Shown here: positions 10,179 to 34,483 of the stretch, in pieces | Position numbering within the stretch: position 1 is the first letter of the stretch | Layout: the number at the start of each line of letters is the position of its first letter | DNA from: an uncultured Candidatus Saccharibacteria bacterium | GTDB lineage: Bacteria; Patescibacteriota; Minisyncoccia; Phycocordibacterales; SBAW01 | DNA: 64,000 nt | Assembly (NCBI GenBank): GCA_964650645.1 | Contig: CAZYUH010000001.1 | Span: 411,032 to 475,031, forward strand | Reading direction: 5' to 3' | Program-made: the position numbers and the translations under genes | Notes under the pieces: model-generated | What the model saw: the letters and a program-made list of their open reading frames with translations, nothing else | What the model was told of the DNA's origin: nothing | The model's database searches: none

Positions 10179-10184
10179 ACTCCT

Positions 10185-13501: not shown

Positions 13502-13559
13502 GCATTCGGGGTCACAATACTGTATTTGTCAAATTACGTTTAAATCAAACAAAAACATA

Positions 13560-13592
13560 CTCCCGTCAAATAATTGACGGGAGTTTTATTTT
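13560..13592 (+). terminator. rho-independent terminator
   Basis: ctcccgtcaa-ataa-ttgacgggag followed by ttttatttt. Confidence 0.7.
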
Positions 13593-13928
13593 GCTTAATG
13601 CGCAAAAAGCCTTATTTATAAACTCTTTTAGCCGAGATATCGGATAGGCTATACGAAAAATGCTTTTTAAATAAAGGAGTACTCGGTAATGCGATTTCAT
13701 GCTTTTTATCGGGTATGTCTTTTGAATGATTAGCGTCAATCGAAAGCGTGGCCGGTGCTAATTTTGGGCTTGATTGAGAGGGTGGCGCCGCGCTAACGCT
13801 GTTTTTATCCTTGCGCTTTTGCGGCTTATTTTCTTCACTTTTTTGACAGAAAAATAAAAAGCCCGGCTTAAAATTATTCATAACTCCGCACACGAACTTT
13901 CCGAGCAAACAAAAGATTTTTCGGCCCT

Positions 13929-16900
13929 ATGACCTCAAGCAAAAAGCTCTTTTCAAAGACCGGCGAGACACTGCTTAACGCCCGAAAGGCCGCCGTTCTT
14001 TTGGAGTGCGCTCCCGACTACGTGAGCCGCTTGTGCCGCGAGGGAAAGATCGAAGGCGTGCGGCACCAGGGCCAGTGGTACATCGACCCTAAGTCGCTTG
14101 AGAGCTTCCGGGCGGGCCGCGATGCGGCGCGCCTTGCGCGCTCAGAAATGCTTTCCGCTGAGCGCCGCAACGAATCGAAGGCGTTCGCCCGGGCTAACGG
14201 CAAAGCGGAGGGAAAGCCCGCGCAAGGCATCATGAGCCGCATTCCGGCAATCCCGCTTTCGCGTCATGCCGCCGCGGCCTTGCTTATAAGCATGCTCCTA
14301 GGCGGCGCGGCGTACGCGTCGAGCGCGGCGTTTTCCGCCGCCCGGGCGCAGCCGGAGGCCCTGTCCGCTTCCGCGGGCCGCATCGAGTCGCCGTTCTTCT
14401 CGACGGTATCGTTTTCCTTCGAGAGCGTATGGCGCGCTATCGCATCGCTGTTCGCTCCGAGCCGCGATGTTGCAGTAGCGCCTTCAATGCAGGCAGACCG
14501 CACGCTGGCTGCGCAGCCGGCGTCGCCCGCCGCACAGCCTGCCGTTGTTGCCGCGACAACCACGCAGACCTTCGTGACGAACACCTATCCCGTTGTGGAG
14601 CGCACGATAGAGCGCACCGTGGAGCGCGCGGTTCCCGCGCAGGCGGCCGACCTTGGCGGCTTCGTTACCTACGACTTCCTCAATGCGCAGATAGACGGCG
14701 TGTACCGTTCTCTGTCGCGGCGCGGCAGCGGAGGCATCGCCGACTTCTCAAGCCTCACCGCCGCCGACATCCCGGCGCTTAACTACCTGCCGCTTACGGG
14801 CGGGACGCTTACGGGCGCGCTTTCCGTGTCGGCCACCTCGACCCTGGCGGGCATCGCGCTTAATGCCGACTGCAGCGCGTACAACAACGGCGGCAAGCTT
14901 ACGACCGATTCCTCGGGCAATGTCGTGTGCGATAACGACACAGCGGGCTCCGGGAGCGGCACCCCGGGCGGTTCTACGGGCCAGGTGCAGTACAACGATG
15001 CGGGCGACTTCGGCGGCGAAGCGGGCTTCACCTACGACGAGGGCGCCAACCGGCTCACTGTGTCTTTCGCCTCGACGACCGGCATTACCGCCGACTACGC
15101 ATCTACGACCAACCTGGTCGTCTCGGGCGTATCAAACGCGCTCTTGAAGACCGTAAACGGGGTCGTGGTGCCCGCCGTCGCCGGCACCGACTACCAGGCG
15201 GCGGGGAACTACGCGACCTTCGCCTACCCGTTCCCCTCGAACGCCACCACCACCTCCATCGCCTTCAACGGCGGCCTCACCGGGGCGCTGACCGGCAACG
15301 CCTCCACCGCCACGGCACTGCAGACCGGCCGCACCATCAACGGCGTCACCTTCGACGGCACGCAGGACATCACCGTAACCGCAGCAAGCTCCACGCTCCT
15401 TGCAAACAACAACACCTTCTCCGGGAACAACACCTTCTCCAACACCATTACCGGCTCAATCACCGGCAACGCGGGCACCGTCACGAACGGCGTGTACACC
15501 ACCACCTTCGGCGGCCTCTTCGCCGGGCAACTCGCGGGCACGACGACCGACGCCTTGGCAGAGGGAAGCGTGAATAAGTACTACACCGACTCGCTGGTGC
15601 AGTCGTACCTCAACGGCGTCGATAAGGGGTTCTTTTTCTCGACAACTTCGGCCGCGTACCAGCTTTCCGTTCTGGATAAGGGCTACTTCTTCTCGACCAC
15701 TTCAGCGGCATACAATCTCTCGACCATAGACAAGGGTTATTTCTTCTCGACGACGTCTGCGGACTACCTGCTGTCCGGCAAGAATTACGCAACCTTCGCG
15801 TACCCGTTCCCCAGCAACGCCACCACCACCCAGCTGGCGCTCAACGGCGGGCTCACTGCGCCGAGCGCGACCATCGCGTACGCGTCGACGACCGCGATAA
15901 CCGCCACGACCGCGAGCACGACCAACCTTGTCATCTCCGGCATCGCTACCGGCTCCACGCAGTGCCTCCAGATAAACTCCTCCGGTACGGTCTCCGGCAC
16001 CGGCTCGGCGTGCGGCTCGGGCGGCGGCGGAAGCATCACGCAAATCGGCCCTGCCGGCCAGATGCAGTCGGGCACGTCCATTACGCTTGCAACCTCGACC
16101 TCGGGCAGCGACTTCACTATTACCGCGGCGGCGGACACCATTACATTCAATTTTCCTATCGCATCGGCTTCCAATACCGGCAAGCTCACTGCGGCCGACT
16201 GGTCGACTTTCAACGATAAGATCTCTTCGACTTCGCTCTCCGCAGGCGCGGGCATCGCGTACAACCCCGCGACCGGCGTCATTACCAACACTATTGGCTA
16301 CCCGTTCCCCAGCAACGCCACCACCACCTCCATCGCCTTCAATGGCGGCCTCACCGGCACGCTCACGGGCTCGCTCGTAGGCAACGCCTCCACCGCCACG
16401 GCCCTCCAGACCCCCCGCACCATCAACGGCGTCACCTTCGACGGCACCTCCAACATCACCGTAACCGCGGCCTCCTCCACGCTCTTGGCGAACAACAACA
16501 CGTTCAGCGGCACCAACACGTTCTCCAACACCATCACCGGCTCAATCACCGGCAACGCGGGCACGGTCACCAACGGCGTGTATACCACGACGTTCAACTC
16601 CCTGTTTGACCCGCGCTTCGCTTCAAGCTTCGCCGGCACCACCACCGACGCACTCGCGGAAGGCTCGACCAACCTCTACTACACCCAAGCCCGTGCCACC
16701 GCGAACTTCATCGCCAACCTCGCGGGCACGTCGAGCGTCGCCTCCATCACCACGCTCCCGAACCTCTCCCTGCCGTCCTCGCAGGTGACGGGCCTGTTCG
16801 CCTACCCGTTCCCATCCAACGCCACTACCACCCAGCTGGCGTTCAACGGAGGCGCCACCTTCGCGGGCGCCACTACGACCGCGCTCGCGGTCACCGGCTC

Positions 16901-19900: not shown

Positions 19901-22900
19901 CAGCACGGTACGCGGGATGGTCTCGGCCTCGGGCCCGCTCTCGTACAACTCCTCGACCGGCATCTTCTCCATCTTCCAGGCCGGCGCGGGCCAGGACGGC
20001 TACCTCTCGTCTGCCGACTGGTCCGCCTTCAACGGCAAGCTCTCCAGCTCATCCATCGACACCTCCACCGAGCTCGCGTCGCTCATCGGCGACGAGACCG
20101 GCACGGGCGCGCTCGTATTCGGCACGGGCGCGACGCTGGCTTCCACGACGCTGTCGGGCAGCACGCTGCTCTCGAATGCCACCACTACGAACCTCGCCAT
20201 CACCGGCGTTACGTCGTCCTTGCTGAAGACCCTGGCAAACGGAGCGGTCGTGCCCGCCGTCGCCGGCAGCGATTACCTGACCAGCGCCACTATCTACCAG
20301 TACCCGTTCCCGAACAACGCGACGTCGACCCTCATAGCGTTCAACGGCGGCATTACCGCCGCCGCCTCGACGCTGTCCTCCACGACGCTTTCCGGCAGCA
20401 CGCTCCTTTCCAACGCGACGACGACCTCGCTCGGCTTCTCGGGGCTCGCCTCGACCCTGCTTAAGACCAACGCGCAGGGGACGGTGGTCGCCGCGAACGC
20501 CGGCACCGACTACGAGAATCCGCTCACATTCTCGACGGGCCTCAGCCGCATCGGGGACGTGGTGTCCAACAGCGGCGTCACGTCGGCGACCGGCACCCTC
20601 AACCAGATCAGCGTCAGCGCGAATACCGGCAATATAACCTTCTCGCTCCCGTCGCTCGTCAATCTCACCAACCTCACGGTCGCTGCGGCCACCACGACGA
20701 ACTCGTTCACGTCCGGCGCGCTGAGCGCTTCGACGGCGCGCTTCGGCTCGACGGCCACCACGACTATCGACGCGGCGGGCAACCTCGCGGTCGCGGGCAC
20801 CTTCGACGGCGCGGGCCTCGCGTCCTGCAGCGGCACCGCCGACAAGCTCCTGTGGAACGCGGGCGTGTTCTCCTGCGGCGTCGATTCCGGTTCCGGCGGC
20901 GGCACCAGCGAGATAAACTGGACCTGGTTCAACGGCTCGGCGGTCCGCGTCTCGACCTCGACCAACCAGGTGCTCATCGGCACCAACGCCACCTCGACGC
21001 TCGCCAAGCTCGAGGTGGTGGGCGGCGTCTTTACCGACAATGCGACCTCCACCGCGAGCCTGTTCGGCGGCCGCATAACGGGCAACAGCGCGGCGTTCGG
21101 CACGACCGCGTCGACCACCATCGACGCGCTGGGCAACGTGGGCATCGGCTCGACGACGCCGTCGGCGCGCCTCGCGGTCGTGGGCGGAAACATACTGCAG
21201 ACCGCGTCCGGCGATCCCAAGCTGGTCGCTTCAAGCGCGCTCGGCCACCGTACCTATGCCACGGCCGTATCGGGCCGGTACGCCTATGTCGCCAACGAGA
21301 CCGGGGGCCTGCGCATCCTCGATATCTCGAACCCGGCGGCTCCGGTCGTGACCGGCTCGTTCGCGTACAACGGCGGGTCTTCGGCAGCTATATCCATAGC
21401 GGTCGCGGGCCAGTACGCGTACGTCGGCGACAACGCCATAGGCCTCGTTATCATCGATGTCTCCAACCCGGCCGCGCCCTCGGTCGTGAGCACGAGCGCT
21501 ATCGTCAACGATCCGTGGAACCTCGCGCTTTCCGGCAAGTACCTGTACGTGGCGGACGGCAATGCCAAGGCGCTCAAGATAATAGACGTCTCCAACCCGG
21601 CCGCGCCGGTGGTGGCCGGCTCTTTCGTCTCCGGCGGCTCGACCCAGCCGCAGGCCGTGGCGGTAGCGGGCAAGTACGCGTACATGAGCGACGCCTCGCT
21701 GGGCAACATATATATAGTAGACATCTCGAACCCCACGGCGCCCGCCCTGACCGCCACCTACGCATCGGGCGGCTCTCCGATGAGCCTGTACGCTTCGGGC
21801 AAGTACCTGTACGTGGCGGACCTCGTAAACGGCTTTTATTCGCTCAATGTCAGCAATCCCAATGCTACCCCGACGCTGGTCGGCAGCTATGCGGGCTCGC
21901 ACTACGGCGTAGCGGTCGCGGGCCAGTACGCCTACATCGCCAACGACGCGGGCCACGAGCTGACCGTGCTCGACCTTGCCAACCAGTCGAGCCCGGCGCT
22001 GGTGGGCGGCGTCGATGTCGGCGACGAGGCGCTCGGCATCACCATGGCGGGCAAGTACGCCTTCATCGCTGCCAACCTCAACGGCCTCGCGGTCGTCGAC
22101 GTGAACGGCGCGAGCTTCCCGGCCGCGAACATCGCGAGCCTCCAGAGCGGCATGGCGAACATCGCCGACGCGCTCACCGTGGGCGGCAATATATACGCCG
22201 GCGGCGGGCTCGATGTCGGCGTATCGGGCATCTACAGCCGCGGCACAATCGCCGCCTACGTCGCGAGCTCGACCGAGCTTAATCCCGTCGTGGCGACCTT
22301 CATGGGCGGCAACGTCGGGATAGGCACTACCTCGCCGTTCGCAAAGCTCTCGGTCGGCGGCAGCGGATTCTTCGGCGGCTCGCTCACCGCGAGCAGTATA
22401 ACCGCGAGCACGTCGGCCTCGCTCGCTTCGACGACGCTTGTAGGGAACACGCTCCTCTCTAACGCAACGACGACATCGTTTGCGATTTCCGGCATTTCGG
22501 GCGCGCTTCTTAAGACCCTCGCAAACGGCGCGGTCGTCCCGGCGGTGGCGGGCACCGACTACGCTTCGCCGTCGGATATCTTCGCCTACCCGTTCCCGTC
22601 AAACGCCACCACCACCCAGCTGGCGTTCAATGGGGGATTGAGCGCGACGACCATCACGGCGAACGCCGCGACCTCGACGTCGCTCTTTAGCGGCCGCGTC
22701 ACGGGCAACACGGCGAGCTTCGGCGCGACCGCGACCTCGTCGTTCTCGAGCAACGGCACGCTCAGCCTCGCGGGGCTCTCAAGCGCCCTGCTTTCCACAG
22801 ACGCCTCCGGCGCCGTCGTCGCTACCACTACGCTCTCCACTAACTACCTCTTCGGGCACCTCGGATTCATCAACGGCGTGGCGTTCAGCGCGGGCGGCAG

Positions 22901-25900: not shown

Positions 25901-28900
25901 GAACTTCATCGCCAACCTCGCGGGCACGTCGAGCGTCGCCTCCATCACGACGCTCCCGAACCTCTCCATACTCTCCTCGCAGGTCTCCGACCTGGCGACG
26001 ACGATCGGCGCCGCGTACCCGTTCGCGCTGGCGGGCAACGCGACCTCGACCCTGACGCAGTTCAATGGAGGCCTCACCGCGTACGCATCCTCGACCATCG
26101 GCAACGGCACCGCGGGCCTCACCGTCTCCGGCAACTCGACCACGACCGGCACCGCGTACTTCGTGGGCAACGTGGGCATCGGTACGACTTCGCCGTTTGC
26201 AGCGCTGTCGGTACAGGGCGCTTCATCGCAAGCCGCCGCGACAAATGCCCCTGTTGCCTTTTCGGTACTTGGCGGTACGGGCTCGACTACGGGCCTGGGA
26301 GGCGCAATTGCCCTTACTGGAGGCACTGGCGGCAATGGCGTTGGTGGTAGTGGCGGAGGCATTTCCCTGACAGGTGGAAATAGCGGAGGAGGCATAGCTT
26401 CTGCGGGAGGAACAGTCGCTCTTTCTGCAGGCAATGGAGGAGGCGCTACTCCCGGCGCCGGCGGCGCTTTGACGATCTCCGGAGGAATAGCTTCAGGAAA
26501 CGCCGGAGGCATCGTAATTAGTTCGGGAAGCGCCAATATTGCCGCATCAAACACCTCCGGCGGAAACATAACCATGATAGCGGGCAACGGCGGCGGTGCA
26601 GGTTCAGTAGGTGCTGGAGGAAGCTTCACTTTTAACAGCGGCAGCGGCAATGTGGGCTCTGCCTCGCAGGCGGCCGGCAGCTTTACCTTTAACGGCGGCA
26701 GCGCCGGAGCCTCTAAGCAGGGAGGCAGCTTTGCCTTTAACGGAGGCGCCGGCTCGACAACCGGCAACGGCGGTGATTTCTCGATTACCGGGGGTACGGG
26801 CGGCAACTCGGCAGGATCGCGCGGCGGCAACATCACTTTGAATCCTGGCGCAGCAGGGACGAGCGGCGCGGTTGGCAATGTGCTGCTGGCAACCTTAAAC
26901 GGCAATGTCGGCATAGGCACCACCAGCCCGTACGCCAAGCTTTCTGTCGCTGGCTCGGTCGTAGCCGCCAGCTTCGTGGGCACCACCACCGCAACCTCTA
27001 CGCTCGGCGGCGGCATGGACATCGCTACCGGCTGCTACGCCATCAACGGAACCTGCCTCTCGGCGGCAAGCCTCGGCGCCTCGACCTTCGCGTACCCGTT
27101 CCCCTCGAACGCGACCTCCACCTCAATCGCGTTCAGCGGCGGGCTGACCGGCACGCTCACGGGCTCCCTGGTGGGCAACGCCTCCACCGCCACGGCGCTG
27201 CAGACCGGCCGCGCGATCAACGGCGTCACCTTCGACGGCACTTCCAACATCACCGTCACCGCGGCGTCCTCGACGCTCCTCGCCAACGACAACACGTTCT
27301 CGGGCACCAACACGTTCAGCAACACCATCAGCGGCTCCATCACCGGCAACGCCGGCACCGTCACCAACGGCGTATACACGACCACGTTCAACGGCCTGTT
27401 CGACAATCGCCTCTCGGCCTCGTCGTCGATCGCGGGCATCACGACGCTGCCGAACCTCTCGCTGCCGGCTTCGCAGGTCACCGGGCTTGCGGCCTACCCG
27501 TTCCCGTCCAACGCCACCACCACGCAGATCGCGTTCAACGGCGGGCTGACGGCGTATGCCTCGACCACTATCGGCAATGGCACCGCGATCGGCGGCCTTA
27601 CCATCAGCGGCGGCGCGACGACGACGGGCACCGCGTACTTCGCGGGCAATGTGGGCATCGGCACCTCTTCTCCCTACCAGGCGCTCTCCGTGGTCGGCAG
27701 CACTACGCTCCAGGCCAATGCTGCGGCGGCTTATTCCTGGACCAACGCCTCGCAGCCGGAGGGCGTGACGCTCCGCATCGGAGCCGATGGCTCTAGCGTA
27801 GCCGGCCTCCTGATACAGGGCTCCAATAGCGGGGCAGGCATAACCGATTACCTGTCCGTATACAATCGCTTCGGCACGAGGCTCTTTGGCGTGACCGATA
27901 GCGGGGTCGGTATCGGAGGCAATACCAGGCTGACCGTCGGCCCGGGCTTTGCATCCGGCGCATCGCTAAACCCGACCGGCGTAAACGACTACAGCATATT
28001 CGGCTCTTCGGCGACAAGCACGCCTGCTCAGCTCATATGGGACGCGCGCCGAGGCACGTTCTACGAAGACAGGACCACCCCGATCCTGCGCTTTGCGGGC
28101 AATGTTGGAGGAGGCAATAGCCCGATTATCGGGGAATCCGTCGGAGGCATAAACATACTCAATGCCAGCACGACGCGCGGACTTTCCTTCGCCAGCTACG
28201 CGTCGAGCACCGGCCAGTTCATCGAGAACTTCCGCATACTCTCGACCGGCAACACCGGCTTCGGCACCTCCAGTCCTTTCGCCAAGCTCGCCGTGCAGGC
28301 CGGCGACGGCGATACGGCGACGACGCTCTTCGCTATCGGCTCTTCGACCGCGAGCGCGACCACCACGCTCTTCTCGGTCTCCAATACCGGCTCGACCACC
28401 ATCCAGAACGGCGTCAACATCGCCGGCGGCTGCTACGCCGTCAACGGCACCTGCCTTTCGGCGGCAACGTTCGGCGCCTCGACCTTCGCCTACCCGTTCC
28501 TCAGCAACGCCACATCGACGACGCTCACGTTCTCGGGAGGACTGCTCGCGACCGCGTCCTCGACCTTCTCGGGCCAGCTCAATCTGGGCGGCACTGCGGC
28601 GAATATCGCGCTCGGCTCCAACTACCTCTCCGGCGACGGCGGCGACGAGGGCGTATTCGTGAACTCCGGCGGCGACGTCGGCATCGGCACCAACGGCCTC
28701 ATTTCAAGCCACGTGCTGACAGTGGCGGGCAACCAGTACCTCTCCGGCGGGCTTGGCGTAGGCGGCGGCAATACGGTGCCGGGTTCGGCGCACATCTACG
28801 GCTCTGCCGGCGATGCGACGTCGCTCACGATTGATGCGCCCAACGCGTCCAGCGCGTCGGCGCTGAACATAAGCGGGCCGTCGAGCGGGAAGGCGTTCGC

Positions 28901-31900
28901 CATTACGGCGACGGGCGAGACCCTGGCGCGCGGCATGTTCTACGTCGACGGCTCGTACGGCATCGGCCCGGGCGGCAACTCGTACTCGCGCGACACGTTC
29001 ATATCGCGCAGCGCGACCAGCACGCTCTTGGTGTCATCGGACATGGCAAGCGGCGCCGCGAACCTCATCGTGACGGGCAACATCGGCGTCGGCACCACCT
29101 CGCCGTACGCGAAGCTCTCGGTGACCGGAGACGCGGTGCTCTCCGGATCGAGCCCGACGCTGACCCTGCACGACACCGGCGGCAACTCGTTCAATACCAT
29201 CCAGAACGCGGGCGGCGGACTGCAATTCAATACCGGGTCGGGCAACAGCATCGTCTTCCAGCAGGCGGGCGTCGAGGCTGCGCGCTTCGTGACGGGCTCG
29301 CGCAATTTCGGCATCGGCACTTCCTCGCCGTCCCAGGCGCTCTCGGTCGCGGGCAACGGCTACGTTTCCGGCGGCTTCGGCATCGGCATGCCTCCGGCAG
29401 CGGCGGGCGGGCTGTACTTCAACCGCGCGGGCAACGACCCGTTCTTCTCGTGGTACGAAAGCGGGGTAAACGTCGGCCAGATACGCGCCGATGCGACCCG
29501 CGGCGGCATCTACTTCGCGGATACGACCGGCGGGACGACGTATTTCCAGGTAAACACCAGCGGAGCCGGGGCGGGCAACGTCGGCGTCGGCACCACCACG
29601 CCGGGCTCCTTGCTCGCCATAGGCAACACCGGCGGCATCAACTTCACGACCGCCACCTCGACCTTCAATACGACCGGCGGCATCAACATCAACTCGGGCT
29701 GCTTTGCCATGAACGGCACCTGCATTACCGCGGGCGGCGGAGGAGGCGTCTCGCTGAGCGCCGCCAATACGTGGACCGCGCTGCAGACCTTCCAGTCCGG
29801 CCTCCTCTCCCAGGCGTCCTCCACCTTCACCGGCGCGCTCACCCTCAGCGGCGGCATCGTCAATTACGCGGCCAACTCGACCTCGACCGTCCCGAACAAC
29901 GCGGCCTACGCGTGGACCATCGCCACCTCCTCGACCGCCCAGCCGCTCTTTGCTATAGACACCACCTCCGGCTCCGAAAGCGTCTCTTTGGGCGCGGCCG
30001 GCGCGGATGTCTACATCGGCGACGCCGGCTCCTCGCCTGATCTCGTGTTCGAGAACAGCGGCACGATAAAGACCGCGAGCGGCGGCACGCTCACGATCGG
30101 CGACGGCTCCGACATCGTCAACTTCGGCGTCAACGTCGGCATCGGCTCGACGACGCCCGGCTCGCTGCTTTCCGTCGGCGACACGAACGGCATCAACTTC
30201 ACGACCGCCACCTCGACCTTCTCCTCCACCGGCGGCATCAACATCGCTTCCGGCTGCTTCGCGGTCAACGGTACGTGCATCACCGGTGGGGGCGGCGGCA
30301 GCTCGGCGTCCTCCACATTGCTCGCTGACTTCAACACCTTCACCAACCTGCAGAGGTTTAACGGCGGCCTGCTCTCGCTCGCGTCCTCGACCATCGGCAA
30401 CGGCAATGCGGGCCTCACCATTTCCGGCAACTCGACCACCACGGGCAACTCGCTGGTCAGCGGCGGGCTCAACGTGGGCACGGTCCCGGTCGCGCCGGTC
30501 ACGGGCGGCATCTACCTCCAGCGCACGACCAATCCGTTCATCTCGTTCTACTACGGCTCGACGCAGGCGGGCCAGCTGCGCGCCAACTCGACGAGCCAGC
30601 TCTCGCTGACCGATCCTACCGGCAACAGCCCGTACCTCTCCATCAACACGTCCGGCGCGGCGGCGGGCAACGTCGGCGTCGGCACCACATCGCCGTTCGC
30701 CAACTTCGCGGTGCAGAAGAACTACGGCTCCACGAACACCACGCTGTTCGCCGTCAGCTCCTCGACCAACAGCGGCGGCACCACGGCGACCACGCTCTTC
30801 AGTGTCGACAGCTCCGGCGTCGCCACGGTGGGCAACGAGTCGGGCGCGGGCGACGCGAACTTCCAGTTCGCCTCCGACGCCAATGCCTGGTCGGTCGGCT
30901 ACAAGTCCTCCGACAAGTCGTTCAACATAGCGTCGTCCACCAACTTCTCGGGCACCGCGGCGCTCTCCATAGCCAAGAACGGCAACGCCACCTTCACGGG
31001 CTCGGGCGGCACCTGCACCATAAACGGCTCGGGCGAGTGCACTTCCGACATCCGCCTCAAGACGGACGTCGCGACGACGACCGGCCAGGACGCGCTCGCG
31101 AAGCTCGCGAAGCTCGACGCCATCACCTACACCTGGTCCGATCCGAAGCTCGACCAGGCGCAGCGCCTCGGCGTCGTCGCCCAGCAGGTGCAGGAGGTGT
31201 TCCCGCAGCTGGTGGGCTCGACGACCGTCAGCTTCATGGGCGTGACCGGCACCTACCTTACTGTCGACTACGGCGGCCTCGCGGCGCCGCTCATCGCCGC
31301 CGTCAACGAGCTCAACCTGCGCACGGGCTTCCTCGCGACGACGACCGCGACCTCCACTCCGGATGAGTTGGCGGACGGCCCGTTCAAGGCCGCGTCCGAT
31401 TGGCTGAAGTCGGCGCTCGCTTCGGGCCTCGACGCCATCCAGGGCGTCGCGGACATCGGCGTGCGCAACGTGGGCGCGGCGATCTACGCGGCGGCGGGCG
31501 CGTTCAACGAGGTGTTCGCGCAGACTATTACCGCCGACACGGTCAAGGCCAAGCAGTTGTGCCTCGAGGATGTCTGCATCACCAAGACTGAGCTCCAGAA
31601 CCTGCTCAACCAGCAGCACTCATCGGGCGGCGGGAGCGGCGGCAACGGCGGCGGGGGAGGGTCGGTGCCGCCGCCGGCGCCCGAACCTGCGGGCCCCGAG
31701 CCGGAGCCGCAGGCGTCGTCCACGCCGGAAACGGCGCCCGAGCCCGAGGCGCCGTCGCCTGGCGAGGCGTCTCCCGGGCCTGAGGCGCCTGCCCCCGAAC
31801 CGGACGCTCCCGCGCCTGAAGCGACTCCGGAGCCCGAACCGGAACCCGAGGATCCTGCTCCGCAGGATGCGCCCGCTCCCGCTCCGGCAAGCGCTCCGGC

Positions 31901-31934
31901 CGCAGGAGGGGAGGGCGGCGCGGTGCAGCCGTAA
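13929..31934 (+). CDS. giant (6001 aa) membrane-anchored fibrous surface protein built from phage tail-fibre-like repeats; contains LVIVD beta-propeller, glycine-rich block and C-terminal intramolecular-chaperone (peptidase S74-like) domain
   Basis: Single uninterrupted ORF; N-terminal HTH-like domain then TM (AAALLISMLLGGAAYASSAAF); about 17 modules beginning AYPFPSNATTT..FNGG; Phage_fiber_2-like motif GNASTATALQTPRTINGVTFDGTSNITVTAASSTLLANNNTFSGTNTF; C-terminal SDIRLKTDV..ITYTW..GVVAQQVQEVFPQLV; Pro/Glu tail. Confidence 0.9.
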   Translation: MTSSKKLFSKTGETLLNARKAAVLLECAPDYVSRLCREGKIEGVRHQGQWYIDPKSLESFRAGRDAARLARSEMLSAERRNESKAFARANGKAEGKPAQGIMSRIPAIPLSRHAAAALLISMLLGGAAYASSAAFSAARAQPEALSASAGRIESPFFSTVSFSFESVWRAIASLFAPSRDVAVAPSMQADRTLAAQPASPAAQPAVVAATTTQTFVTNTYPVVERTIERTVERAVPAQAADLGGFVTYDFLNAQIDGVYRSLSRRGSGGIADFSSLTAADIPALNYLPLTGGTLTGALSVSATSTLAGIALNADCSAYNNGGKLTTDSSGNVVCDNDTAGSGSGTPGGSTGQVQYNDAGDFGGEAGFTYDEGANRLTVSFASTTGITADYASTTNLVVSGVSNALLKTVNGVVVPAVAGTDYQAAGNYATFAYPFPSNATTTSIAFNGGLTGALTGNASTATALQTGRTINGVTFDGTQDITVTAASSTLLANNNTFSGNNTFSNTITGSITGNAGTVTNGVYTTTFGGLFAGQLAGTTTDALAEGSVNKYYTDSLVQSYLNGVDKGFFFSTTSAAYQLSVLDKGYFFSTTSAAYNLSTIDKGYFFSTTSADYLLSGKNYATFAYPFPSNATTTQLALNGGLTAPSATIAYASTTAITATTASTTNLVISGIATGSTQCLQINSSGTVSGTGSACGSGGGGSITQIGPAGQMQSGTSITLATSTSGSDFTITAAADTITFNFPIASASNTGKLTAADWSTFNDKISSTSLSAGAGIAYNPATGVITNTIGYPFPSNATTTSIAFNGGLTGTLTGSLVGNASTATALQTPRTINGVTFDGTSNITVTAASSTLLANNNTFSGTNTFSNTITGSITGNAGTVTNGVYTTTFNSLFDPRFASSFAGTTTDALAEGSTNLYYTQARATANFIANLAGTSSVASITTLPNLSLPSSQVTGLFAYPFPSNATTTQLAFNGGATFAGATTTALAVTGSTTVSSTLNVGGVINASGGVIGNVTGSLVGNASTATALETPRTINGVTFDGTQDITVAAASSTLLTDNNTFSGKTLLANATTTNLAVTGVTSSLLKTLSNGAVVAAVAGTDYVANTSGDWTGTFDGQEGSYYLNAANLANFGVPFYNFFSATTTSALAEGSNLYYTDERVDDRVGALLQAGSGVNLTYDDGSDTLTISATGGGGGGTDVNWTYFNGSTIRPATSTNQVLVGGTSTSTLVSPFAKLGVLGGASIDYASTTGITASYASTTDLVISGIPNGILKTVNGVVTAATAGVDYLTSGSSFAYPFPSNATTTQLAFNGGATFAGATTTALAVTGSTTVSSTLNVGGVINANGGVIGNVTGSLTGNASTATALQTPRTINGVTFDGTSNITVTAASSTLLANNNTFSGTNTFSNTITGSITGNAGTVTNGVYTTTFGGLFAGQLAGTTTDALAEGSANLYYTQARATANFIANLAGTSSVASITTLPNLSLPSSQVTGLFAYPFPSNATTTQLAFNGGLSATTITADAATSTSLFGGRVTGSTASFGATATSSFSSAGALTLANLSNAVLAVNAQGQVVATSSIGMSQLTGTLGVPNGGTGSTTLGGLLIGNGTGAIASAAVTGPLSFSGTTLSIAQATGAQSGYLSSADWSTFNGKVSSSSLSSANGYLTYNGSTGVFTASTSPTYAAATSTAFRTTSLTIGTLTGLLKASSGAVAAAVAGTDYENPLTFSYPLQRTVNAVSLAFGTTTSNTWAGTQTFTNAPRLGTLTGLVGANNGTLYQISTSTSFVTSLTAGAGISLSGATGAVTVTNAIGYPFPSNATTTQIAFNGGATFAGATTTALAVTGSTTVSGVLNAGGVVNANGGVTAAGASTIASTTLTGRTLLSNATSSSIYTPVLGVNGEYFTNLTGAGLQNVGGALTLDTAGDWTGTFDGQEGSYYLANSFSTTSAAYFSSLGLAFSTTSSDYWLSQKTTGNLAEGSNLYFTNARADARIAAATSTVRGMVSASGPLSYNSSTGIFSIFQAGAGQDGYLSSADWSAFNGKLSSSSIDTSTELASLIGDETGTGALVFGTGATLASTTLSGSTLLSNATTTNLAITGVTSSLLKTLANGAVVPAVAGSDYLTSATIYQYPFPNNATSTLIAFNGGITAAASTLSSTTLSGSTLLSNATTTSLGFSGLASTLLKTNAQGTVVAANAGTDYENPLTFSTGLSRIGDVVSNSGVTSATGTLNQISVSANTGNITFSLPSLVNLTNLTVAAATTTNSFTSGALSASTARFGSTATTTIDAAGNLAVAGTFDGAGLASCSGTADKLLWNAGVFSCGVDSGSGGGTSEINWTWFNGSAVRVSTSTNQVLIGTNATSTLAKLEVVGGVFTDNATSTASLFGGRITGNSAAFGTTASTTIDALGNVGIGSTTPSARLAVVGGNILQTASGDPKLVASSALGHRTYATAVSGRYAYVANETGGLRILDISNPAAPVVTGSFAYNGGSSAAISIAVAGQYAYVGDNAIGLVIIDVSNPAAPSVVSTSAIVNDPWNLALSGKYLYVADGNAKALKIIDVSNPAAPVVAGSFVSGGSTQPQAVAVAGKYAYMSDASLGNIYIVDISNPTAPALTATYASGGSPMSLYASGKYLYVADLVNGFYSLNVSNPNATPTLVGSYAGSHYGVAVAGQYAYIANDAGHELTVLDLANQSSPALVGGVDVGDEALGITMAGKYAFIAANLNGLAVVDVNGASFPAANIASLQSGMANIADALTVGGNIYAGGGLDVGVSGIYSRGTIAAYVASSTELNPVVATFMGGNVGIGTTSPFAKLSVGGSGFFGGSLTASSITASTSASLASTTLVGNTLLSNATTTSFAISGISGALLKTLANGAVVPAVAGTDYASPSDIFAYPFPSNATTTQLAFNGGLSATTITANAATSTSLFSGRVTGNTASFGATATSSFSSNGTLSLAGLSSALLSTDASGAVVATTTLSTNYLFGHLGFINGVAFSAGGSSIITAASSTLLANNNTFSGTNTFSNIITGSVSGNAGTATALQTPRTINGVTFDGTGNIVITAASSTLLANNNTFSGTNIFSNTINGSITGNAGTVTNGVYTTTFGGLFAGQLAGTTTDALAEGSANLYYTQARATANFIANLAGTSSVASITTLPNLSLPSSQVTGLFAYPFPSNATTTSIAFNGGLTGTLTGSLVGNASTATALQTPRTINGVTFDGTSNITVTAASSTLLANNNTFSGTNTFSNTINGSITGNAGTVTNGVYTTTFNSLFDPRFVTQLAATSSIASITTLPNLSLPYSQLTGTPAIAGYPFAGAGNSTSTLTQFNGGLTAYASSTIGNGTATGGLTVSGNATTTGNAYIAGNLTAAGTVAANGVSTAMIRDASSVSALDIANRRLLDSGTVNALDFSSASSIKLTQYTSNGFLKTSGGNGTLSVDTTISTSGGNVGIGTTSPYAKLSVAGQVVAASFVGTTTATSTLGGGMNIASGCYAVNGTCLSAASLGASTFAYPFPSNATTTQIAFNGGATFAGATTTALAVTGSTTVSSVLNVGGVINANGGITAGTYNASGASSTVLSLSGQALLSASSTTSSVFLGLNSGALNQSTGVYNSGLGAGALASNTTGTRNSAFGFATLVSNTSGAGNTAAGFQSMQSNTVGINNSAFGYNSLATNSYGVYNTAVGSHSLFANTSGVYNTASGYASLVFNSYGTFNSAFGSQALYNNGSGSYNSAFGYFAGKTNTVGTSTTLVGSFSDVAANNLSTSTAIGAGAVVSASNSLVLGGLGQSSVLAGVGTTTPFARFSIQANPTDSVPNAMLFAIGSSTASATTTLFSVSNTGSTTAQNGINIANGCYAVNGACLSAATFGASTFAYPFPSNATTTSIAFNGGLTGTLTGSLVGNASTATALQTPRTINGVTFDGTGNIVITAASSTLLANNNTFSGTNTFSNTISGSITGNAGTVTNGVYTTTFGGLFAGQLAGTTTDALAEGSANLYYTQARATANFIANLAGTSSVASITTLPNLSILSSQVSDLATTIGAAYPFALAGNATSTLTQFNGGLTAYASSTIGNGTAGLTVSGNSTTTGTAYFVGNVGIGTTSPFAALSVQGASSQAAATNAPVAFSVLGGTGSTTGLGGAIALTGGTGGNGVGGSGGGISLTGGNSGGGIASAGGTVALSAGNGGGATPGAGGALTISGGIASGNAGGIVISSGSANIAASNTSGGNITMIAGNGGGAGSVGAGGSFTFNSGSGNVGSASQAAGSFTFNGGSAGASKQGGSFAFNGGAGSTTGNGGDFSITGGTGGNSAGSRGGNITLNPGAAGTSGAVGNVLLATLNGNVGIGTTSPYAKLSVAGSVVAASFVGTTTATSTLGGGMDIATGCYAINGTCLSAASLGASTFAYPFPSNATSTSIAFSGGLTGTLTGSLVGNASTATALQTGRAINGVTFDGTSNITVTAASSTLLANDNTFSGTNTFSNTISGSITGNAGTVTNGVYTTTFNGLFDNRLSASSSIAGITTLPNLSLPASQVTGLAAYPFPSNATTTQIAFNGGLTAYASTTIGNGTAIGGLTISGGATTTGTAYFAGNVGIGTSSPYQALSVVGSTTLQANAAAAYSWTNASQPEGVTLRIGADGSSVAGLLIQGSNSGAGITDYLSVYNRFGTRLFGVTDSGVGIGGNTRLTVGPGFASGASLNPTGVNDYSIFGSSATSTPAQLIWDARRGTFYEDRTTPILRFAGNVGGGNSPIIGESVGGINILNASTTRGLSFASYASSTGQFIENFRILSTGNTGFGTSSPFAKLAVQAGDGDTATTLFAIGSSTASATTTLFSVSNTGSTTIQNGVNIAGGCYAVNGTCLSAATFGASTFAYPFLSNATSTTLTFSGGLLATASSTFSGQLNLGGTAANIALGSNYLSGDGGDEGVFVNSGGDVGIGTNGLISSHVLTVAGNQYLSGGLGVGGGNTVPGSAHIYGSAGDATSLTIDAPNASSASALNISGPSSGKAFAITATGETLARGMFYVDGSYGIGPGGNSYSRDTFISRSATSTLLVSSDMASGAANLIVTGNIGVGTTSPYAKLSVTGDAVLSGSSPTLTLHDTGGNSFNTIQNAGGGLQFNTGSGNSIVFQQAGVEAARFVTGSRNFGIGTSSPSQALSVAGNGYVSGGFGIGMPPAAAGGLYFNRAGNDPFFSWYESGVNVGQIRADATRGGIYFADTTGGTTYFQVNTSGAGAGNVGVGTTTPGSLLAIGNTGGINFTTATSTFNTTGGININSGCFAMNGTCITAGGGGGVSLSAANTWTALQTFQSGLLSQASSTFTGALTLSGGIVNYAANSTSTVPNNAAYAWTIATSSTAQPLFAIDTTSGSESVSLGAAGADVYIGDAGSSPDLVFENSGTIKTASGGTLTIGDGSDIVNFGVNVGIGSTTPGSLLSVGDTNGINFTTATSTFSSTGGINIASGCFAVNGTCITGGGGGSSASSTLLADFNTFTNLQRFNGGLLSLASSTIGNGNAGLTISGNSTTTGNSLVSGGLNVGTVPVAPVTGGIYLQRTTNPFISFYYGSTQAGQLRANSTSQLSLTDPTGNSPYLSINTSGAAAGNVGVGTTSPFANFAVQKNYGSTNTTLFAVSSSTNSGGTTATTLFSVDSSGVATVGNESGAGDANFQFASDANAWSVGYKSSDKSFNIASSTNFSGTAALSIAKNGNATFTGSGGTCTINGSGECTSDIRLKTDVATTTGQDALAKLAKLDAITYTWSDPKLDQAQRLGVVAQQVQEVFPQLVGSTTVSFMGVTGTYLTVDYGGLAAPLIAAVNELNLRTGFLATTTATSTPDELADGPFKAASDWLKSALASGLDAIQGVADIGVRNVGAAIYAAAGAFNEVFAQTITADTVKAKQLCLEDVCITKTELQNLLNQQHSSGGGSGGNGGGGGSVPPPAPEPAGPEPEPQASSTPETAPEPEAPSPGEASPGPEAPAPEPDAPAPEATPEPEPEPEDPAPQDAPAPAPASAPAAGGEGGAVQP
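21220..22150 (+). other. LVIVD-repeat beta-propeller segment inside the giant ORF
   Basis: Six to eight repeats such as YAYVANETGGLRILDISNPAAPVV, YAYVGDNAIGLVIIDVSNPAAPSV, YLYVADGNAKALKIIDVSNPAAPVV, YAFIAANLNGLAVVDVNGAS. Confidence 0.7.
26220..26900 (+). other. glycine-rich block (GGxGG-type, not collagen Gly-X-Y) inside the giant ORF
   Basis: GGAIALTGGTGGNGVGGSGGGISLTGGNSGGGIASAGGTVALSAGNGGGATPGAGGALTISGG... Confidence 0.8.
31010..31330 (+). other. intramolecular chaperone autoproteolytic domain (peptidase S74 / tail-spike C-terminal chaperone-like)
   Basis: TCTINGSGECTSDIRLKTDVATTTGQDALAKLAKLDAITYTWSDPKLDQAQRLGVVAQQVQEVFPQLVG..TVDYGGLAAPLIAAVNELN (S-D-x-R-L-K and IAQEV-like motifs). Confidence 0.7.
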
Positions 31935-33861: not shown

Positions 33862-34454
33862 GCAGGGGCGCATGGATAGCCGCTTCGTGCGTTGCCCTGT
33901 GTATCGCGGCGGCGGCATGGGCGTTCTTTGGCGCGCCGGGAGCGCCGCGCATTTTTTTACCGGGCGGCGCAGGCGGCGAACCGGCGCCCGGCTTTGCAAT
34001 GGCAAGCGGGACAGACGCAAGCGCCGGGCCGCTCAAGCCGCCGCGCACGCCGCCGGCGGGACAGAAGGAGCTGTACAATGAAAAATATCGGTTCTCGCTC
34101 TTTTATCCGGACACCCTTTCCTTAAAAGCCTACGACGAAGGGGGCGGGGCGTCGACTATCGCGCTCCAGAGCGTCGCGCGCGCGGAAGGATTCCAAATAT
34201 TCGTCGTGCCCTACCGGGGCGCGCAAGTGAGCATGGAGCGGTTCAGGCGCGACGTGCCGTCAGGGGTCATGCGGGAGCCTCTTGATACAACCATAGACGG
34301 CGCGACGGCGACGAGCTTCTACAGCGCCAACGCCGCGCTGGGCGACACGGCCGAGATATGGTTCATTCATGGCGGCTACCTGTTCGAGGTGACCGCGCCC
34401 AAATCGCAGGCGGCATGGCTCTCGGATATCATGAAAACCTGGCAGTTCATATAA
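33858..34454 (+). CDS. small membrane-anchored partner protein, type A (..WQFI C-terminus)
   Basis: ATGA start/stop overlap with upstream gene; N-terminal TM AWIAASCVALCIAAAAWAFF; paralog of 36548 (FYPDTLSLKAYDE.. / IAYPEQLKVTQYEE..; both end W(Q/K)FI). Confidence 0.65.
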   Translation: MSRGAWIAASCVALCIAAAAWAFFGAPGAPRIFLPGGAGGEPAPGFAMASGTDASAGPLKPPRTPPAGQKELYNEKYRFSLFYPDTLSLKAYDEGGGASTIALQSVARAEGFQIFVVPYRGAQVSMERFRRDVPSGVMREPLDTTIDGATATSFYSANAALGDTAEIWFIHGGYLFEVTAPKSQAAWLSDIMKTWQFI

Positions 34455-34469
34455 GGCGGGGCGCGATGA

Positions 34470-34475
34470 TATAAT
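34470..34475 (+). promoter_or_regulatory. TATAAT -10 box 8 nt upstream of ATG
   Basis: gatgaTATAATcggcgttaATG. Confidence 0.45.
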
Positions 34476-34483
34476 CGGCGTTA

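What the first reader, a model, noticed from the sequence alone, without database searches (positions are those of the whole stretch)
13929..31934. 6001-aa membrane-anchored fibre made of phage tail-fibre modules
A single uninterrupted 18-kb ORF encodes a protein of about 600 kDa. Almost all of its length is repeats. Each repeat starts AYPFPSNATTT..FNGG and contains the motif ..GNASTATALQTPRTINGVTFDGTSNITV... I recognise this motif as the 'phage tail fibre repeat' of lambdoid side tail fibres. The protein has no cleavable signal peptide. Instead it has a cytoplasmic HTH-like domain and one TM helix, so it should be a type-II (N-in) anchored, extremely long extracellular fibre. It sits among housekeeping genes and no phage structural genes are present, so it looks like a domesticated tail fibre used as a cell-surface adhesin or attachment organelle. 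Such an organelle could mediate contact with a host cell if the organism is an episymbiont.
Basis: partly seen in the sequence, partly recalled or inferred. Interest (0 to 1): 0.9.

Follow-up and report, generated by a model that had tools for sequence, protein, structure and literature searches.

The report
Giant tail-fibre-like surface protein, CPR bacterium
An ultra-small (CPR/Patescibacteria) bacterium encodes a 6001-residue protein that appears to be membrane-anchored and is built from the same short modules as phage tail fibres; it has a cytoplasmic DNA-binding-type domain at one end and a self-cleaving trimerisation chaperone at the other, so it is most likely a very long cell-surface fibre, and I found no published description of this kind.

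Summary
Window 13929-31934 (+) is one uninterrupted 6001-codon ORF, and 81% of the protein has an internal paralogous stretch.

Phage_fiber_2 was not hit. The 26-residue motif does match T4-type gp37, P1 and lambdoid tail fibres (65-78% identity) and PHROG 1833. Whole modules recur at 51-58% identity on phage contigs that carry terminase, portal or tail genes.

The N-terminus is a confidently modelled MerR/excisionase-type winged HTH, then a long helix, then one weakly hydrophobic helix.

Named relatives are all Patescibacteria (Minisyncoccota). The gene sits in a conserved housekeeping locus (SecA-DsbD-Obg-GatB-small HTH/TM gene-GIANT-...-GAPDH). Members of the same HTH...fibre...S74 family range from 2605 to more than 4335 residues in other metagenomes.

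Most likely it is an exported, trimeric, N-terminally anchored fibre whose folding is nucleated by the C-terminal S74 domain.

Adhesion to a host, retention of the anchor, and the exact number of modules remain untested. Exact 200-249-nt repeats exist, and short-read assemblies break inside the gene.

The parts
13929..31934 (+). Giant ORF of 6001 aa, rich in Thr/Gly/Ala/Ser/Asn (62% of residues)
13971..14117 (+). Cytoplasmic winged helix-turn-helix domain (aa 15-63), MerR/excisionase (HTH_17) type
   Evidence: Pfam PF12728 scores 28.2 bits against a gathering score of 27. AF2 pLDDT exceeds 90. Foldseek top hits are BldC, Pukovnik Xis, TraN, RacA and RdfS, with target-normalised TM-score 0.7-0.83. 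Conserved in all orthologues.
14088..14234 (+). Long charged helix (aa 54-102) linking the HTH to the membrane segment
   Evidence: AF2 helix H54-102; pLDDT is high to about residue 90. The R/E/K-rich linker is conserved.
14262..14327 (+). Single hydrophobic helix (aa ~112-133), either a signal anchor or an internal signal peptide. Followed by AYA|SS.
   Evidence: Kyte-Doolittle maximum of 1.62 at aa 117-135, the highest in the protein. AF2 helix 112-128 at low pLDDT. Positive residues lie on the N-terminal side. Small residues follow the h-region in orthologues.
15225..28541 (+). Mosaic module zone with 14 strict 'YPFPSNATTT..FNGG' junction motifs. They start at nt 15225, 16299, 16803, 17814, 18408, 19350, 20301, 22587, 23409, 24426, 25509, 27093, 27495 and 28491.
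15294..27251 (+). Eight copies of the tail-fibre motif GNASTATALQTPRTINGVTFDG..NI, at nt 15294-15371, 16380-16457, 16986-17063, 17997-18074, 22998-23075, 23490-23567, 25590-25667 and 27174-27251. Seven copies of GSITGNAGTVTNG lie within this span (BppL_N-like in homologues), plus one overlapping variant, GSVSGNAGTATAL, at nt 22986-23024.
   Evidence: tblastn against phage tail fibres; phrog_1833; BppL_N in homologues that carry the same motif
21186..22298 (+). LVIVD-repeat beta-propeller (about aa 2420-2790, 7 repeats)
   Evidence: Pfam PF08309, E 1.1e-62, 7 stretches. The region is 51-56% identical in L092-L096.
24606..25208 (+). Run of roughly 14-residue NSAFGY-type repeats (about aa 3560-3760). 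They look like adhesin-head repeats, but no family was matched.
   Evidence: Sequence read directly. No Pfam hit at E<=10. One relative in P0021.
26196..26918 (+). Glycine-rich segment (about aa 4090-4330)
   Evidence: no family hit
31044..31214 (+). Peptidase_S74 intramolecular chaperone / autoprotease domain (aa 5706-5762). The predicted cleavage Ser5706 and Lys5711 lie in SDIRLK at nt 31044-31061.
   Evidence: Pfam PF13884, E 3.9e-14, 53.1 bits against a gathering score of 22. The motif aligns to SSDRRIK of PDB 6F45. Foldseek top hits are the MYRF ICA domain 7DC3 and the endosialidase chaperone 3GW6, despite a low-confidence model.
31215..31931 (+). Extension after the S74 domain. It contains a conserved LCLEDVCITK motif (nt 31557-31586) and an acidic Pro-rich tail (nt 31641-31931).
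   Evidence: 83% identical in P0058. The same motif and a similar tail occur in L093, and a similar tail in L097.
12644..13501 (+). Upstream partner gene of 285 aa: the same type of N-terminal HTH, a Pro-rich linker and a C-terminal TM helix
   Evidence: Sequence. It is the only other HTH copy in the window. PHROG excisionase hit, E 2.7e-4. Conserved in the same position in L007, L008 and L094.
13559..13584 (+). Terminator-like hairpin after the 285-aa gene
   Evidence: The stem is kept by different sequence in L007 and L008.
13630..13646 (.). Conserved element AGCCGAGATATCGGATA in the 428-nt AT-rich spacer. A related perfect palindrome, CCGATATATCGG, lies at 12588-12599 upstream of the 285-aa gene.
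13892..13924 (+). Conserved leader block ACGAACTTTCCGAGCAAACAAAAGATTTTTCGG directly before the ATG, with no Shine-Dalgarno sequence
   Evidence: No significant RNA fold (z-score 0.81).
31975..37114 (+). Downstream syntenic genes: two pairs, each a secreted glycine-rich protein (628 and 687 aa) followed by a 198- or 188-aa partner
   Evidence: Homologues follow the orthologous giant gene in L010.

Best explanation
This is a genuine chromosomal gene of a Patescibacteria (CPR) bacterium. It encodes a very long, probably trimeric, cell-envelope fibre.

Shown here:
- The N-terminal ~100 residues form a MerR/excisionase-type winged HTH followed by a long helix.
- One hydrophobic helix follows.
- About 5570 residues of shuffled short modules come next. 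Some of these modules are shared with phage tail fibres and receptor-binding proteins. A 7-repeat LVIVD propeller lies in the middle.
- The protein ends in a Peptidase_S74 intramolecular-chaperone domain with an intact SDxRxK Ser/Lys motif.

Inferred:
- The chain is exported through Sec with its N-terminus inside the cell.
- The S74 domain emerges last and trimerises. It nucleates folding of the fibre from the C-terminus towards the membrane, as it does in phage tailspikes and fibres. It then cuts itself off at Ser5706 and exposes the distal tip.
- The mature fibre stays attached through its three N-terminal helices.
- Scaling from the T4 long tail fibre (own knowledge: about 0.06 nm per residue) puts its length at roughly 0.2-0.35 micrometre, about one CPR cell diameter.
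- It captures or holds another surface, such as a host cell, a particle or a sister cell.
For: - ORF and domains.
- S74 motif, alignment and fold.
- HTH fold.
- Single hydrophobic segment with positive residues on its N-terminal side.
- Tail-fibre motif in T4-like, P1 and lambdoid fibres.
- Whole modules at 51-58% identity on phage contigs with terminase and portal (L013) or tail genes (L014).
- Family members with the same ends and different lengths:
  - P0105 is complete at 2605 aa, running from HTH to S74, and is followed by GAPDH-RpiB.
  - The L007 ORF is at least 3732 aa.
  - The L094 ORF is at least 4335 aa, with the HTH, an LVIVD region and the full upstream synteny.
  - P0058 is the C-terminal 1811 aa of a close orthologue with the same downstream synteny.
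- Exactly one HTH/TM region lies at the start and one S74 domain at the end of the ORF. This argues for a single gene rather than a concatenation of genes.
- No phage structural genes in the window.
- All named relatives are Patescibacteria.
Against: - There is no expression, localisation or oligomer data.
- The hydrophobic helix is weak (Kyte-Doolittle 1.62) and has low pLDDT. It is followed by an AxA-like site, so the fibre may be released rather than anchored.
- No other wall-anchoring motif was seen.
- The C-terminal model has mean pLDDT 46, so the structural support for S74 is weak taken alone.
- Module number and order rest on one assembly that contains 200-249-nt exact repeats. Short-read assemblies of the same population break there.
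- A monomeric beta-propeller in the middle of a trimeric fibre is unusual.
- The role of a cytoplasmic HTH in a purely structural fibre is unexplained.
Confidence: 0.7

Rival explanations
1. The fibre is secreted, not anchored. Signal peptidase cuts after the hydrophobic segment (AYA|SS, about residue 130). The HTH-helix-TM stub stays in the membrane, and the fibre is released into the envelope, an S-layer-like coat or the medium.
For: The hydrophobic segment is short and weak (Kyte-Doolittle 1.62). In all aligned orthologues it is followed by small residues: AYA-SS, VCA-SS, ALA-SS, VFA-SS, AFA-GG. The upstream 285-aa paralogue is essentially such a stub: HTH, linker and TM.
Against: The segment lies 110 residues from the N-terminus behind a folded domain, which is atypical for a cleavable signal peptide. 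No signal-peptide predictor could be run. No alternative anchor is present.
Confidence: 0.2
2. The protein is a contact or tension sensor. The extracellular fibre is an antenna. The cytoplasmic MerR/Xis-type HTH is a membrane-tethered DNA-binding output. It would regulate transcription in the manner of ToxR, or tether DNA to the fibre base in the manner of RacA.
For: The HTH fold is confidently predicted and matches DNA-bound BldC, Xis, TraN and RacA. It is the most conserved part of a family that is otherwise fast-diverging. A second HTH-TM gene is always adjacent. A conserved near-palindrome, CCGAGATATCGG, lies upstream of the giant gene in four lineages. A perfect palindrome, CCGATATATCGG, lies upstream of the small gene in the window.
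Against: No DNA binding has been shown. The element matches at the tested stringency are not more numerous in the window than in shuffles (3 matches against a mean of 2.1). The upstream palindrome is only partly conserved in L007 and L008 and absent in L094. A membrane-tethered HTH could reach only DNA that lies at the membrane.
Confidence: 0.15
3. The gene is real and giant, but its 6001-aa length and module order are partly an assembly artefact: a mis-join, or an expansion or collapse among near-identical modules.
For: Exact repeats of 200-249 nt exist in the ORF, and 87 repeated 150-mers. Five short-read contigs of the same or a sister population end inside the first repeats. No independent contig covering the interior at near identity was found.
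Against: The reading frame is unbroken over 18 kb. Most repeat copies are diverged, at 63-96% identity. Orthologues show comparable size and colinear ends.
Confidence: 0.15
4. It is a tail-fibre gene of a prophage or prophage remnant, not a cellular surface structure.
For: Tail-fibre motifs, the PHROG hit and the S74 domain. The same modules occur on phage contigs.
Against: No capsid, portal, terminase, tail or integrase gene was found in 64 kb. The gene holds the same position between GatB and GAPDH in several divergent lineages. An N-terminal HTH and membrane segment are not virion features.
Confidence: 0.03

Closest known systems
Phage long and side tail fibres (T4-type gp37, P1 S, lambdoid Stf; PHROG 1833)
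   Same: They share the 26-30-residue motif GNA.TA..L.T.R.I.G..FDG at 65-78% identity. The PHROG profile matches in 8 stretches. Both are Thr/Ser/Gly/Asn-rich modular fibres with the attachment end at the N-terminus and the distal tip at the C-terminus.
   Different: This protein is encoded in a housekeeping locus of a cell. It is five to six times longer. It has an N-terminal HTH and membrane segment. It must fold outside the membrane rather than in the cytoplasm. Pfam Phage_fiber_2 is not matched.
C-terminal intramolecular chaperone / Peptidase_S74 of endosialidases, tailspikes and tail fibres (PDB 3GW6, 6F45)
   Same: Pfam match of 53 bits. The SDxRxK Ser/Lys motif is in register. The domain sits at the C-terminal end of a fibre.
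   Different: Here it is followed by a further ~240 residues, with a conserved LCLEDVCITK motif and an acidic Pro-rich tail. It is presumably extracellular.
MYRF (myelin regulatory factor; ICA domain PDB 7DC3)
   Same: To my knowledge it is the only well-studied cellular protein that combines a DNA-binding domain, a membrane helix and an S74-type self-cleaving trimerisation domain. It is the best Foldseek hit for the C-terminal model.
   Different: The domain order differs: DBD-ICA-TM in MYRF against HTH-TM-fibre-S74 here. In MYRF, cleavage frees the DNA-binding domain. Here it cannot, because the membrane and 5500 residues lie between the two domains. The DNA-binding fold is also different.
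Very large surface proteins of Absconditicoccaceae (CPR) episymbionts
   Same: They are CPR bacteria. Their very large proteins preferentially carry TM or signal segments, and these are proposed to mediate host recognition (PMC13059738).
   Different: Those proteins carry fibronectin III, integrin, concanavalin A and adhesin-repeat domains. They have no tail-fibre modules, S74 domain or HTH.
Trimeric autotransporter adhesins (YadA/BadA type)
   Same: They are giant, modular, trimeric fibres made of shuffled repeat modules and used for adhesion (own knowledge). The NSAFGY-type 14-residue repeats at aa 3560-3760 look similar.
   Different: No Hep_Hag or YadA-anchor hit at E<=10. The anchor here is N-terminal and helical rather than a C-terminal outer-membrane barrel. 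No outer-membrane component of any kind was detected for this protein.
BldC / Xis / RacA small MerR-like winged HTH proteins; ToxR-type membrane-tethered regulators
   Same: The HTH domain superposes on BldC (rmsd 1.3 A over 49 residues) and on Xis, TraN, RacA and RdfS. As in RacA, a long helix follows the HTH. As in ToxR, the domain order is DNA-binding domain, one TM helix, then an external part.
   Different: None of these carries a multi-thousand-residue external fibre. DNA binding was not tested here.

Membership tests
Peptidase_S74 / intramolecular chaperone auto-processing domain (PF13884) | Profile match above the curated cut-off | tested here: met
   53.1 bits against a cut-off of 22, E 3.9e-14, aa 5706-5762
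Peptidase_S74 / intramolecular chaperone auto-processing domain (PF13884) | Catalytic Ser and Lys five residues apart (S-D-x-R-x-K) at the start of the domain | tested here: met
   S5706-D-I-R-L-K5711. It aligns with SSDRRIK of the tail-fibre chain 6F45 and with SDARLK / SDERLK / SDQRLK in S74-bearing relatives.
Peptidase_S74 / intramolecular chaperone auto-processing domain (PF13884) | Fold like the solved ICA/CIMCD domains | tested here: inconclusive
   The model has mean pLDDT 46, with the S74 core at about 53-76. The nine best Foldseek PDB hits are still 7DC3 (MYRF ICA, E 3e-4) and 3GW6 (endosialidase chaperone), but rmsd exceeds 10 A.
Peptidase_S74 / intramolecular chaperone auto-processing domain (PF13884) | Trimerisation-dependent self-cleavage | not testable with these tools
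   Requires biochemistry
Phage tail fibre (PHROG 1833; gp37 / S / Stf motif) | Sequence similarity to annotated tail-fibre proteins | tested here: met
   phrog_1833 at E 2.4e-29 and 3.3e-22, 8 stretches. tblastn finds 124 phage records at 60-80% identity over 27-31 residues. Whole modules are 51-58% identical on IMG/VR phage contigs.
Phage tail fibre (PHROG 1833; gp37 / S / Stf motif) | Encoded within a phage or prophage structural module, as part of a virion | tested here: not met
   No phage structural gene in the window. Housekeeping synteny is conserved.
   No hit on the whole protein at E<=0.01 or on a single module at E<=10
LVIVD repeat beta-propeller (PF08309) | Repeated profile matches above the cut-off | tested here: met
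   207.5 bits against a cut-off of 20.2, 7 stretches, about aa 2420-2790
HTH_17 (PF12728), excisionase/MerR-like winged helix | Profile match above the cut-off | tested here: met
   28.2 bits against a cut-off of 27 on the 430-aa fragment. This is marginal: 25.0 bits when scored inside the 3000-aa piece.
HTH_17 (PF12728), excisionase/MerR-like winged helix | Winged-helix fold of the BldC/Xis type | tested here: met
   pLDDT exceeds 90 for residues ~11-90. BldC gives target-normalised TM-score 0.83 and rmsd 1.3 A; Pukovnik Xis gives 0.75.
HTH_17 (PF12728), excisionase/MerR-like winged helix | DNA binding | not testable with these tools
   Only an operator-like conserved element was found
Trimeric autotransporter adhesin | Hep_Hag / HIM head repeats and a C-terminal YadA-type membrane anchor | tested here: not met
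   No such Pfam hit at E<=10 on the relevant segments. The C-terminus is an S74 domain instead.
BppL_N (PF18338) receptor-binding-protein N-terminal repeat | Profile match | tested here: not met
   Not hit in the giant protein. Short homologues with the same GNAGTVTNGVYT motif do match.

The most novel reading that the evidence does not exclude
The protein is a combined organelle: a fibre of about 0.3 micrometre that is physically continuous, through a single membrane helix, with a cytoplasmic DNA-binding domain. Binding, pulling or breakage at the distal end would be reported directly to DNA. This could be autoregulation through the conserved CCGAGATATCGG element, or tethering of the nucleoid or incoming DNA at the fibre base. 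The adjacent HTH-TM protein would act as partner or competitor. That would be a new type of one-component contact sensor in episymbiotic bacteria.
Probability: 0.12. Interest if true: 0.85.

Novelty: new variant of a known kind. Interest (0 to 1): 0.62.

Why it matters
Most Parcubacteria-type CPR bacteria are uncultured, and how they find and hold a partner cell is unknown. This family gives a concrete, conserved candidate for that contact structure. Its architecture is testable: an N-terminal anchor and a C-terminal self-cleaving tip chaperone.

It also shows that the phage tail-fibre toolkit of short fibre modules plus the S74 chaperone is used by cells for a protein that appears to cross the membrane before it folds. 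This extends the known range of the S74 folding mechanism.

The distal tip and the LVIVD propeller could be expressed as probes to fish for the unknown host or ligand. The fused HTH raises the possibility of direct outside-to-DNA coupling.

Tried and rejected
- **PDB sequence search.** Both halves of the protein gave nothing useful: only a low-complexity match of the Pro-rich tail.
- **NCBIfam.** No hit for the giant protein's segments or for its neighbours.
- **Pfam on single segments at E<=10.** No Phage_fiber_2, BppL_N or Hep_Hag hit.
- **Exact look-up of the downstream 628-aa protein.** Not on record. The giant protein itself exceeds the 5000-residue limit of that tool.
- **Word-indexed homologue searches.** The module and the C-terminus returned only a few short proteins. 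The exhaustive representative search was far more informative.
- **AF2 model of the tip plus S74 region.** Poor, with mean pLDDT 46. It was used only for a cautious fold search. The region before the S74 domain could not be interpreted.
- **Metagenome scan with the LVIVD region.** It found orthologous-level loci at 51-56% identity. It found no near-identical contig that could verify the interior of the assembly.
- **RNA structure in the conserved leader.** Not supported (z-score 0.81). No Rfam family other than one tRNA in the window.
- **Prophage explanation.** Rejected on gene context and synteny.
- **Literature searches.** I searched for S74 or tail-fibre giants in CPR and found no description. 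The library does not hold most subscription journals, so absence is not proof.
Full report
**1. The observation**

Window 13929-31934 on the + strand is a single ATG-initiated ORF of 6001 codons with no internal stop. The protein is 62% Thr, Gly, Ala, Ser and Asn, and has 24 cysteines that mostly come in closely spaced pairs.

Cutting the protein into 80-residue windows and comparing each with the whole shows how repetitive it is. 81% of residues have a second copy elsewhere at >=40% identity, 46% at >=60% and 26% at >=80%. At the 40% threshold the unique parts are aa 1-362, part of the LVIVD region (aa 2676-2768), four short stretches of 50-105 aa between aa 4639 and 5373, and aa 5641-6001.

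The junction motif YPFPSNATTT..FNGG occurs 14 times by a strict pattern and 16 times by a relaxed one. The motif GNASTATALQTPRTINGVTFDG..NI occurs 8 times. The protein is therefore a mosaic of several module types joined at a common junction motif. It is not an array of one repeat.

**2. Is the ORF an assembly artefact?**

The DNA copies are dispersed at irregular spacing and are 63-96% identical. That is not what a duplicated or collapsed assembly looks like. The ORF has exactly one HTH/TM start and one S74 end.

Against this, exact repeats of 200-249 nt exist. Six independent short-read contigs carry the same locus. Five of them end inside the gene, at window 14858-16416, in the first modules; the sixth (L006) ends upstream at 12651. 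One Logan contig is 100% identical to window 8170-14858. A metagenome scan found no near-identical contig covering the interior.

I conclude that the gene is real and giant. The exact number and order of its modules still need long-read confirmation.

**3. Domains**

Pfam finds three families:
- HTH_17 at aa 15-63. It scores 28.2 bits against a gathering score of 27 on the N-terminal 430 aa, and 25.0 bits inside a 3000-aa piece.
- Seven LVIVD repeats at about aa 2420-2790 (E 1e-62).
- Peptidase_S74 at aa 5706-5762 (E 3.9e-14).

PHROGs matches family 1833, 'tail fiber protein', in eight stretches (E 2e-29 and 3e-22). A tblastn search with one 173-residue module against 50,697 phage records finds 124 records. 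The matched part is the 27-31-residue motif, at 65-78% identity, in the following:
- the long tail fibre distal subunit (gp37) of T4-like Acinetobacter phages;
- the tail fibre of P1;
- lambdoid side tail fibres.

A second short motif, GSITGNAGTVTNGVYT, is shared with short proteins that Pfam assigns to BppL_N, a phage receptor-binding-protein N-terminal repeat.

**4. The C-terminus**

The S74 domain starts with S5706-D-I-R-L-K5711. This is the Ser/Lys spacing of the self-cleaving intramolecular chaperone. It aligns with SSDRRIK of a solved tail-fibre chain, 6F45, and with the same motif in S74-bearing relatives.

The AF2 model of aa 5590-5830 is poor, with mean pLDDT 46. Its nine best PDB matches are nevertheless the MYRF ICA domain and the endosialidase chaperone.

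After the domain come about 240 more residues, with a conserved LCLEDVCITK motif and an acidic Pro-rich tail. The motif and a similar tail recur in L093, and a similar tail in L097.

**5. The N-terminus**

With a nine-sequence alignment, AF2 models residues ~11-90 at pLDDT above 90. The model shows a small winged helix-turn-helix, then a helix spanning aa 54-102, then a lower-confidence helix at 112-128.

Foldseek places the HTH next to BldC (rmsd 1.3 A over 49 residues, target-normalised TM-score 0.83), mycobacteriophage Pukovnik Xis, TraN, RacA and RdfS. All of these are DNA-binding MerR/excisionase-type domains.

The only strongly hydrophobic stretch in 6001 residues is aa 117-135. Its Kyte-Doolittle score is 1.62, and basic residues lie on its N-terminal side. 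In all aligned orthologues it is followed by small residues such as AYA-SS, VCA-SS and AFA-GG. This resembles a signal-peptidase site. The N-in topology is therefore likely, but whether the anchor is retained is open.

**6. Organism and locus**

The window carries the following genes:
- an O-antigen-ligase/TPR protein, SecA, DsbD, a holin_4_2-family membrane protein, Obg and GatB;
- the giant gene;
- GAPDH, RpiB, Rpe, a pilin, a split transketolase and class II aldolase;
- a Kelch protein, an SLT-like protein, a lectin-domain pilin, a release factor and tRNA-Thr.

Neither Pfam nor PHROGs finds any phage structural gene.

Relatives of the N-terminal 430 residues are rare: 8 were found in the word-indexed search of 5.8 billion proteins. 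Every one that carries a name comes from Patescibacteria, Paceibacterota or Parcubacteria MAGs. NCBI treats 'Candidatus Paceibacterota' as the phylum Minisyncoccota.

Synteny is conserved across several lineages:
- L008 has Obg, GatB, a 267-aa gene, then the giant.
- L094 has SecA, DsbD, the holin-family gene, Obg, GatB, a 242-aa HTH/TM gene, then a giant ORF of at least 4335 aa with the same HTH start and an LVIVD region.
- L010, a 480-kb contig that ends inside the gene, has the giant's C-terminus, two small genes, then GAPDH, RpiB, Rpe, pilin, transketolase and aldolase.
- L011 has a complete 2605-aa HTH...S74 protein followed by GAPDH and RpiB.

The gene is thus a vertically inherited resident of a housekeeping locus. 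Its two ends are conserved. Its interior changes quickly, with only 25-42% identity between orthologues and different module content.

**7. How widely the modules occur**

An exhaustive HMMER search with one module finds 2761 representative clusters at E<=0.001, 615 at E<=1e-10 and 57 at E<=1e-30. Many are multi-thousand-residue proteins. By BLAST against the proteins fetched up to that point, at least five of the listed best hits begin with the same HTH/TM region, and 15 carry an S74 domain at or near the C-terminus. NCBI labels such proteins 'helix-turn-helix domain-containing protein, partial' or 'tail fiber domain-containing protein'.

In IMG/VR, 262 stretches encode relatives of the module. 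In L013 an ORF of more than 1433 aa lies next to terminase and portal genes. It carries YPFPSNAT junctions, GNAGTVTNGVYT and GNAGTATALQTGRTI. L014 has a 1207-aa ORF beside tail proteins.

The building blocks, including the junction motif, are therefore shared between phages and these cellular giants. The direction of transfer is not resolved.

**8. Mechanism**

The domain order and the family relationships are shown. The rest is inferred:
- The chain is exported with its N-terminus inside the cell.
- The S74 domain leaves the membrane last, trimerises, templates folding of the fibre back towards the membrane, and cuts itself off.
- A trimeric fibre with three mid-fibre propellers is left standing on three N-terminal helices.
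- Scaling from the T4 long tail fibre (own knowledge) gives a length of about 0.2-0.35 micrometre.
- The likely role is capture of, or adhesion to, another surface.

Large surface proteins have been proposed for this role in other CPR lineages, but with quite different domains (PMC13059738).

The rivals are:
- release by signal peptidase;
- a sensing role for the HTH;
- partial mis-assembly;
- a prophage remnant, which the evidence argues strongly against.

**9. Novelty**

I found no paper describing S74 or tail-fibre giants in CPR bacteria, or an HTH-TM-fibre architecture. The library is incomplete, and homologues do sit in databases under automatic names.

I rate this a new variant of a known kind: giant modular bacterial surface fibres built with phage fibre parts. 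Interest is moderate to high. The fused cytoplasmic HTH is the element that could make it more than that.

Noticed in passing
window 12644-13501 (+): A 285-aa gene directly upstream encodes the same kind of N-terminal HTH, a long Pro-rich linker and a C-terminal TM helix ending in ...SNFISTTIVSEQGKSATVIRAIHW. It is effectively the giant protein's N-terminal module as a stand-alone protein. It keeps this position in L007, L008 and L094.
   Followed up: partly
window 13502-13928; also 12588-12599: The 428-nt AT-rich spacer before the giant gene keeps its length (433-434 nt) in L007 and L008. It has invariant blocks although the flanking proteins are only about 50% identical. AGCCGAGATATCGGATA is also found upstream of the L094 giant, where it forms part of a 12-nt perfect inverted repeat. 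There is a possible -35 region, TT(T/C)GACAG, and a 33-nt block abutting the ATG with no Shine-Dalgarno sequence. A perfect palindrome, CCGATATATCGG, lies upstream of the 285-aa gene. This may be an operator for the two HTH proteins. No RNA fold signal was found.
   Followed up: partly
window 31975-37114 and 45873-48485 (+): Two consecutive gene pairs each consist of a secreted protein with long poly-Gly 'Gly_rich_2'-like regions (628 and 687 aa) followed by a 198- or 188-aa paralogous partner. A third glycine-rich secreted protein of 870 aa lies further on. The first pair is syntenic with genes after the orthologous giant in L010, where the first protein lacks the Gly-rich insert (290 aa).
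   Followed up: partly
L012, L013, L014 (IMG/VR contigs): The large fibre-like ORFs on these viral contigs carry the same modules and begin with signal-peptide-like N-termini, for example MKWLLPTIFLLLASTASAQG. This is odd for virion proteins, which assemble in the cytoplasm. L013 also has terminase and portal genes. At 50-58% GC these contigs could be phages of related CPR bacteria.
   Followed up: partly
window 3191-5422 (+): A 743-aa protein has a Wzy_C (O-antigen ligase family) domain plus TPR repeats. This family includes protein O-oligosaccharyltransferases (own knowledge), and the giant protein is 27% Ser+Thr, so glycosylation of the fibre is conceivable.
   Followed up: no
window 14000-32000: GC skew is strongly negative across the giant ORF (-0.06 to -0.20), against about 0 upstream and about +0.1 downstream. 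It probably reflects the codon content of the Thr/Ala/Ser-rich repeats rather than replication.
   Followed up: no
window 58948-59778 and 40381-40959 (+): Two type IV pilin-like genes carry an N_methyl motif. One has a concanavalin-A-like lectin domain (Laminin_G_3). An 885-aa Kelch-repeat protein lies at 51794-54451. These are further candidate surface or contact proteins in the same 64 kb.
   Followed up: no
window 41020-42903 (+): Transketolase is split into separate N-terminal and C-terminal genes. The same arrangement is seen in L010.
   Followed up: no
L009 (same MAG as L007): A second, more divergent HTH-TM-fibre paralogue (35% identity at the N-terminus) exists in the same Paceibacterota MAG. 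A genome can therefore carry more than one such fibre gene.
   Followed up: no
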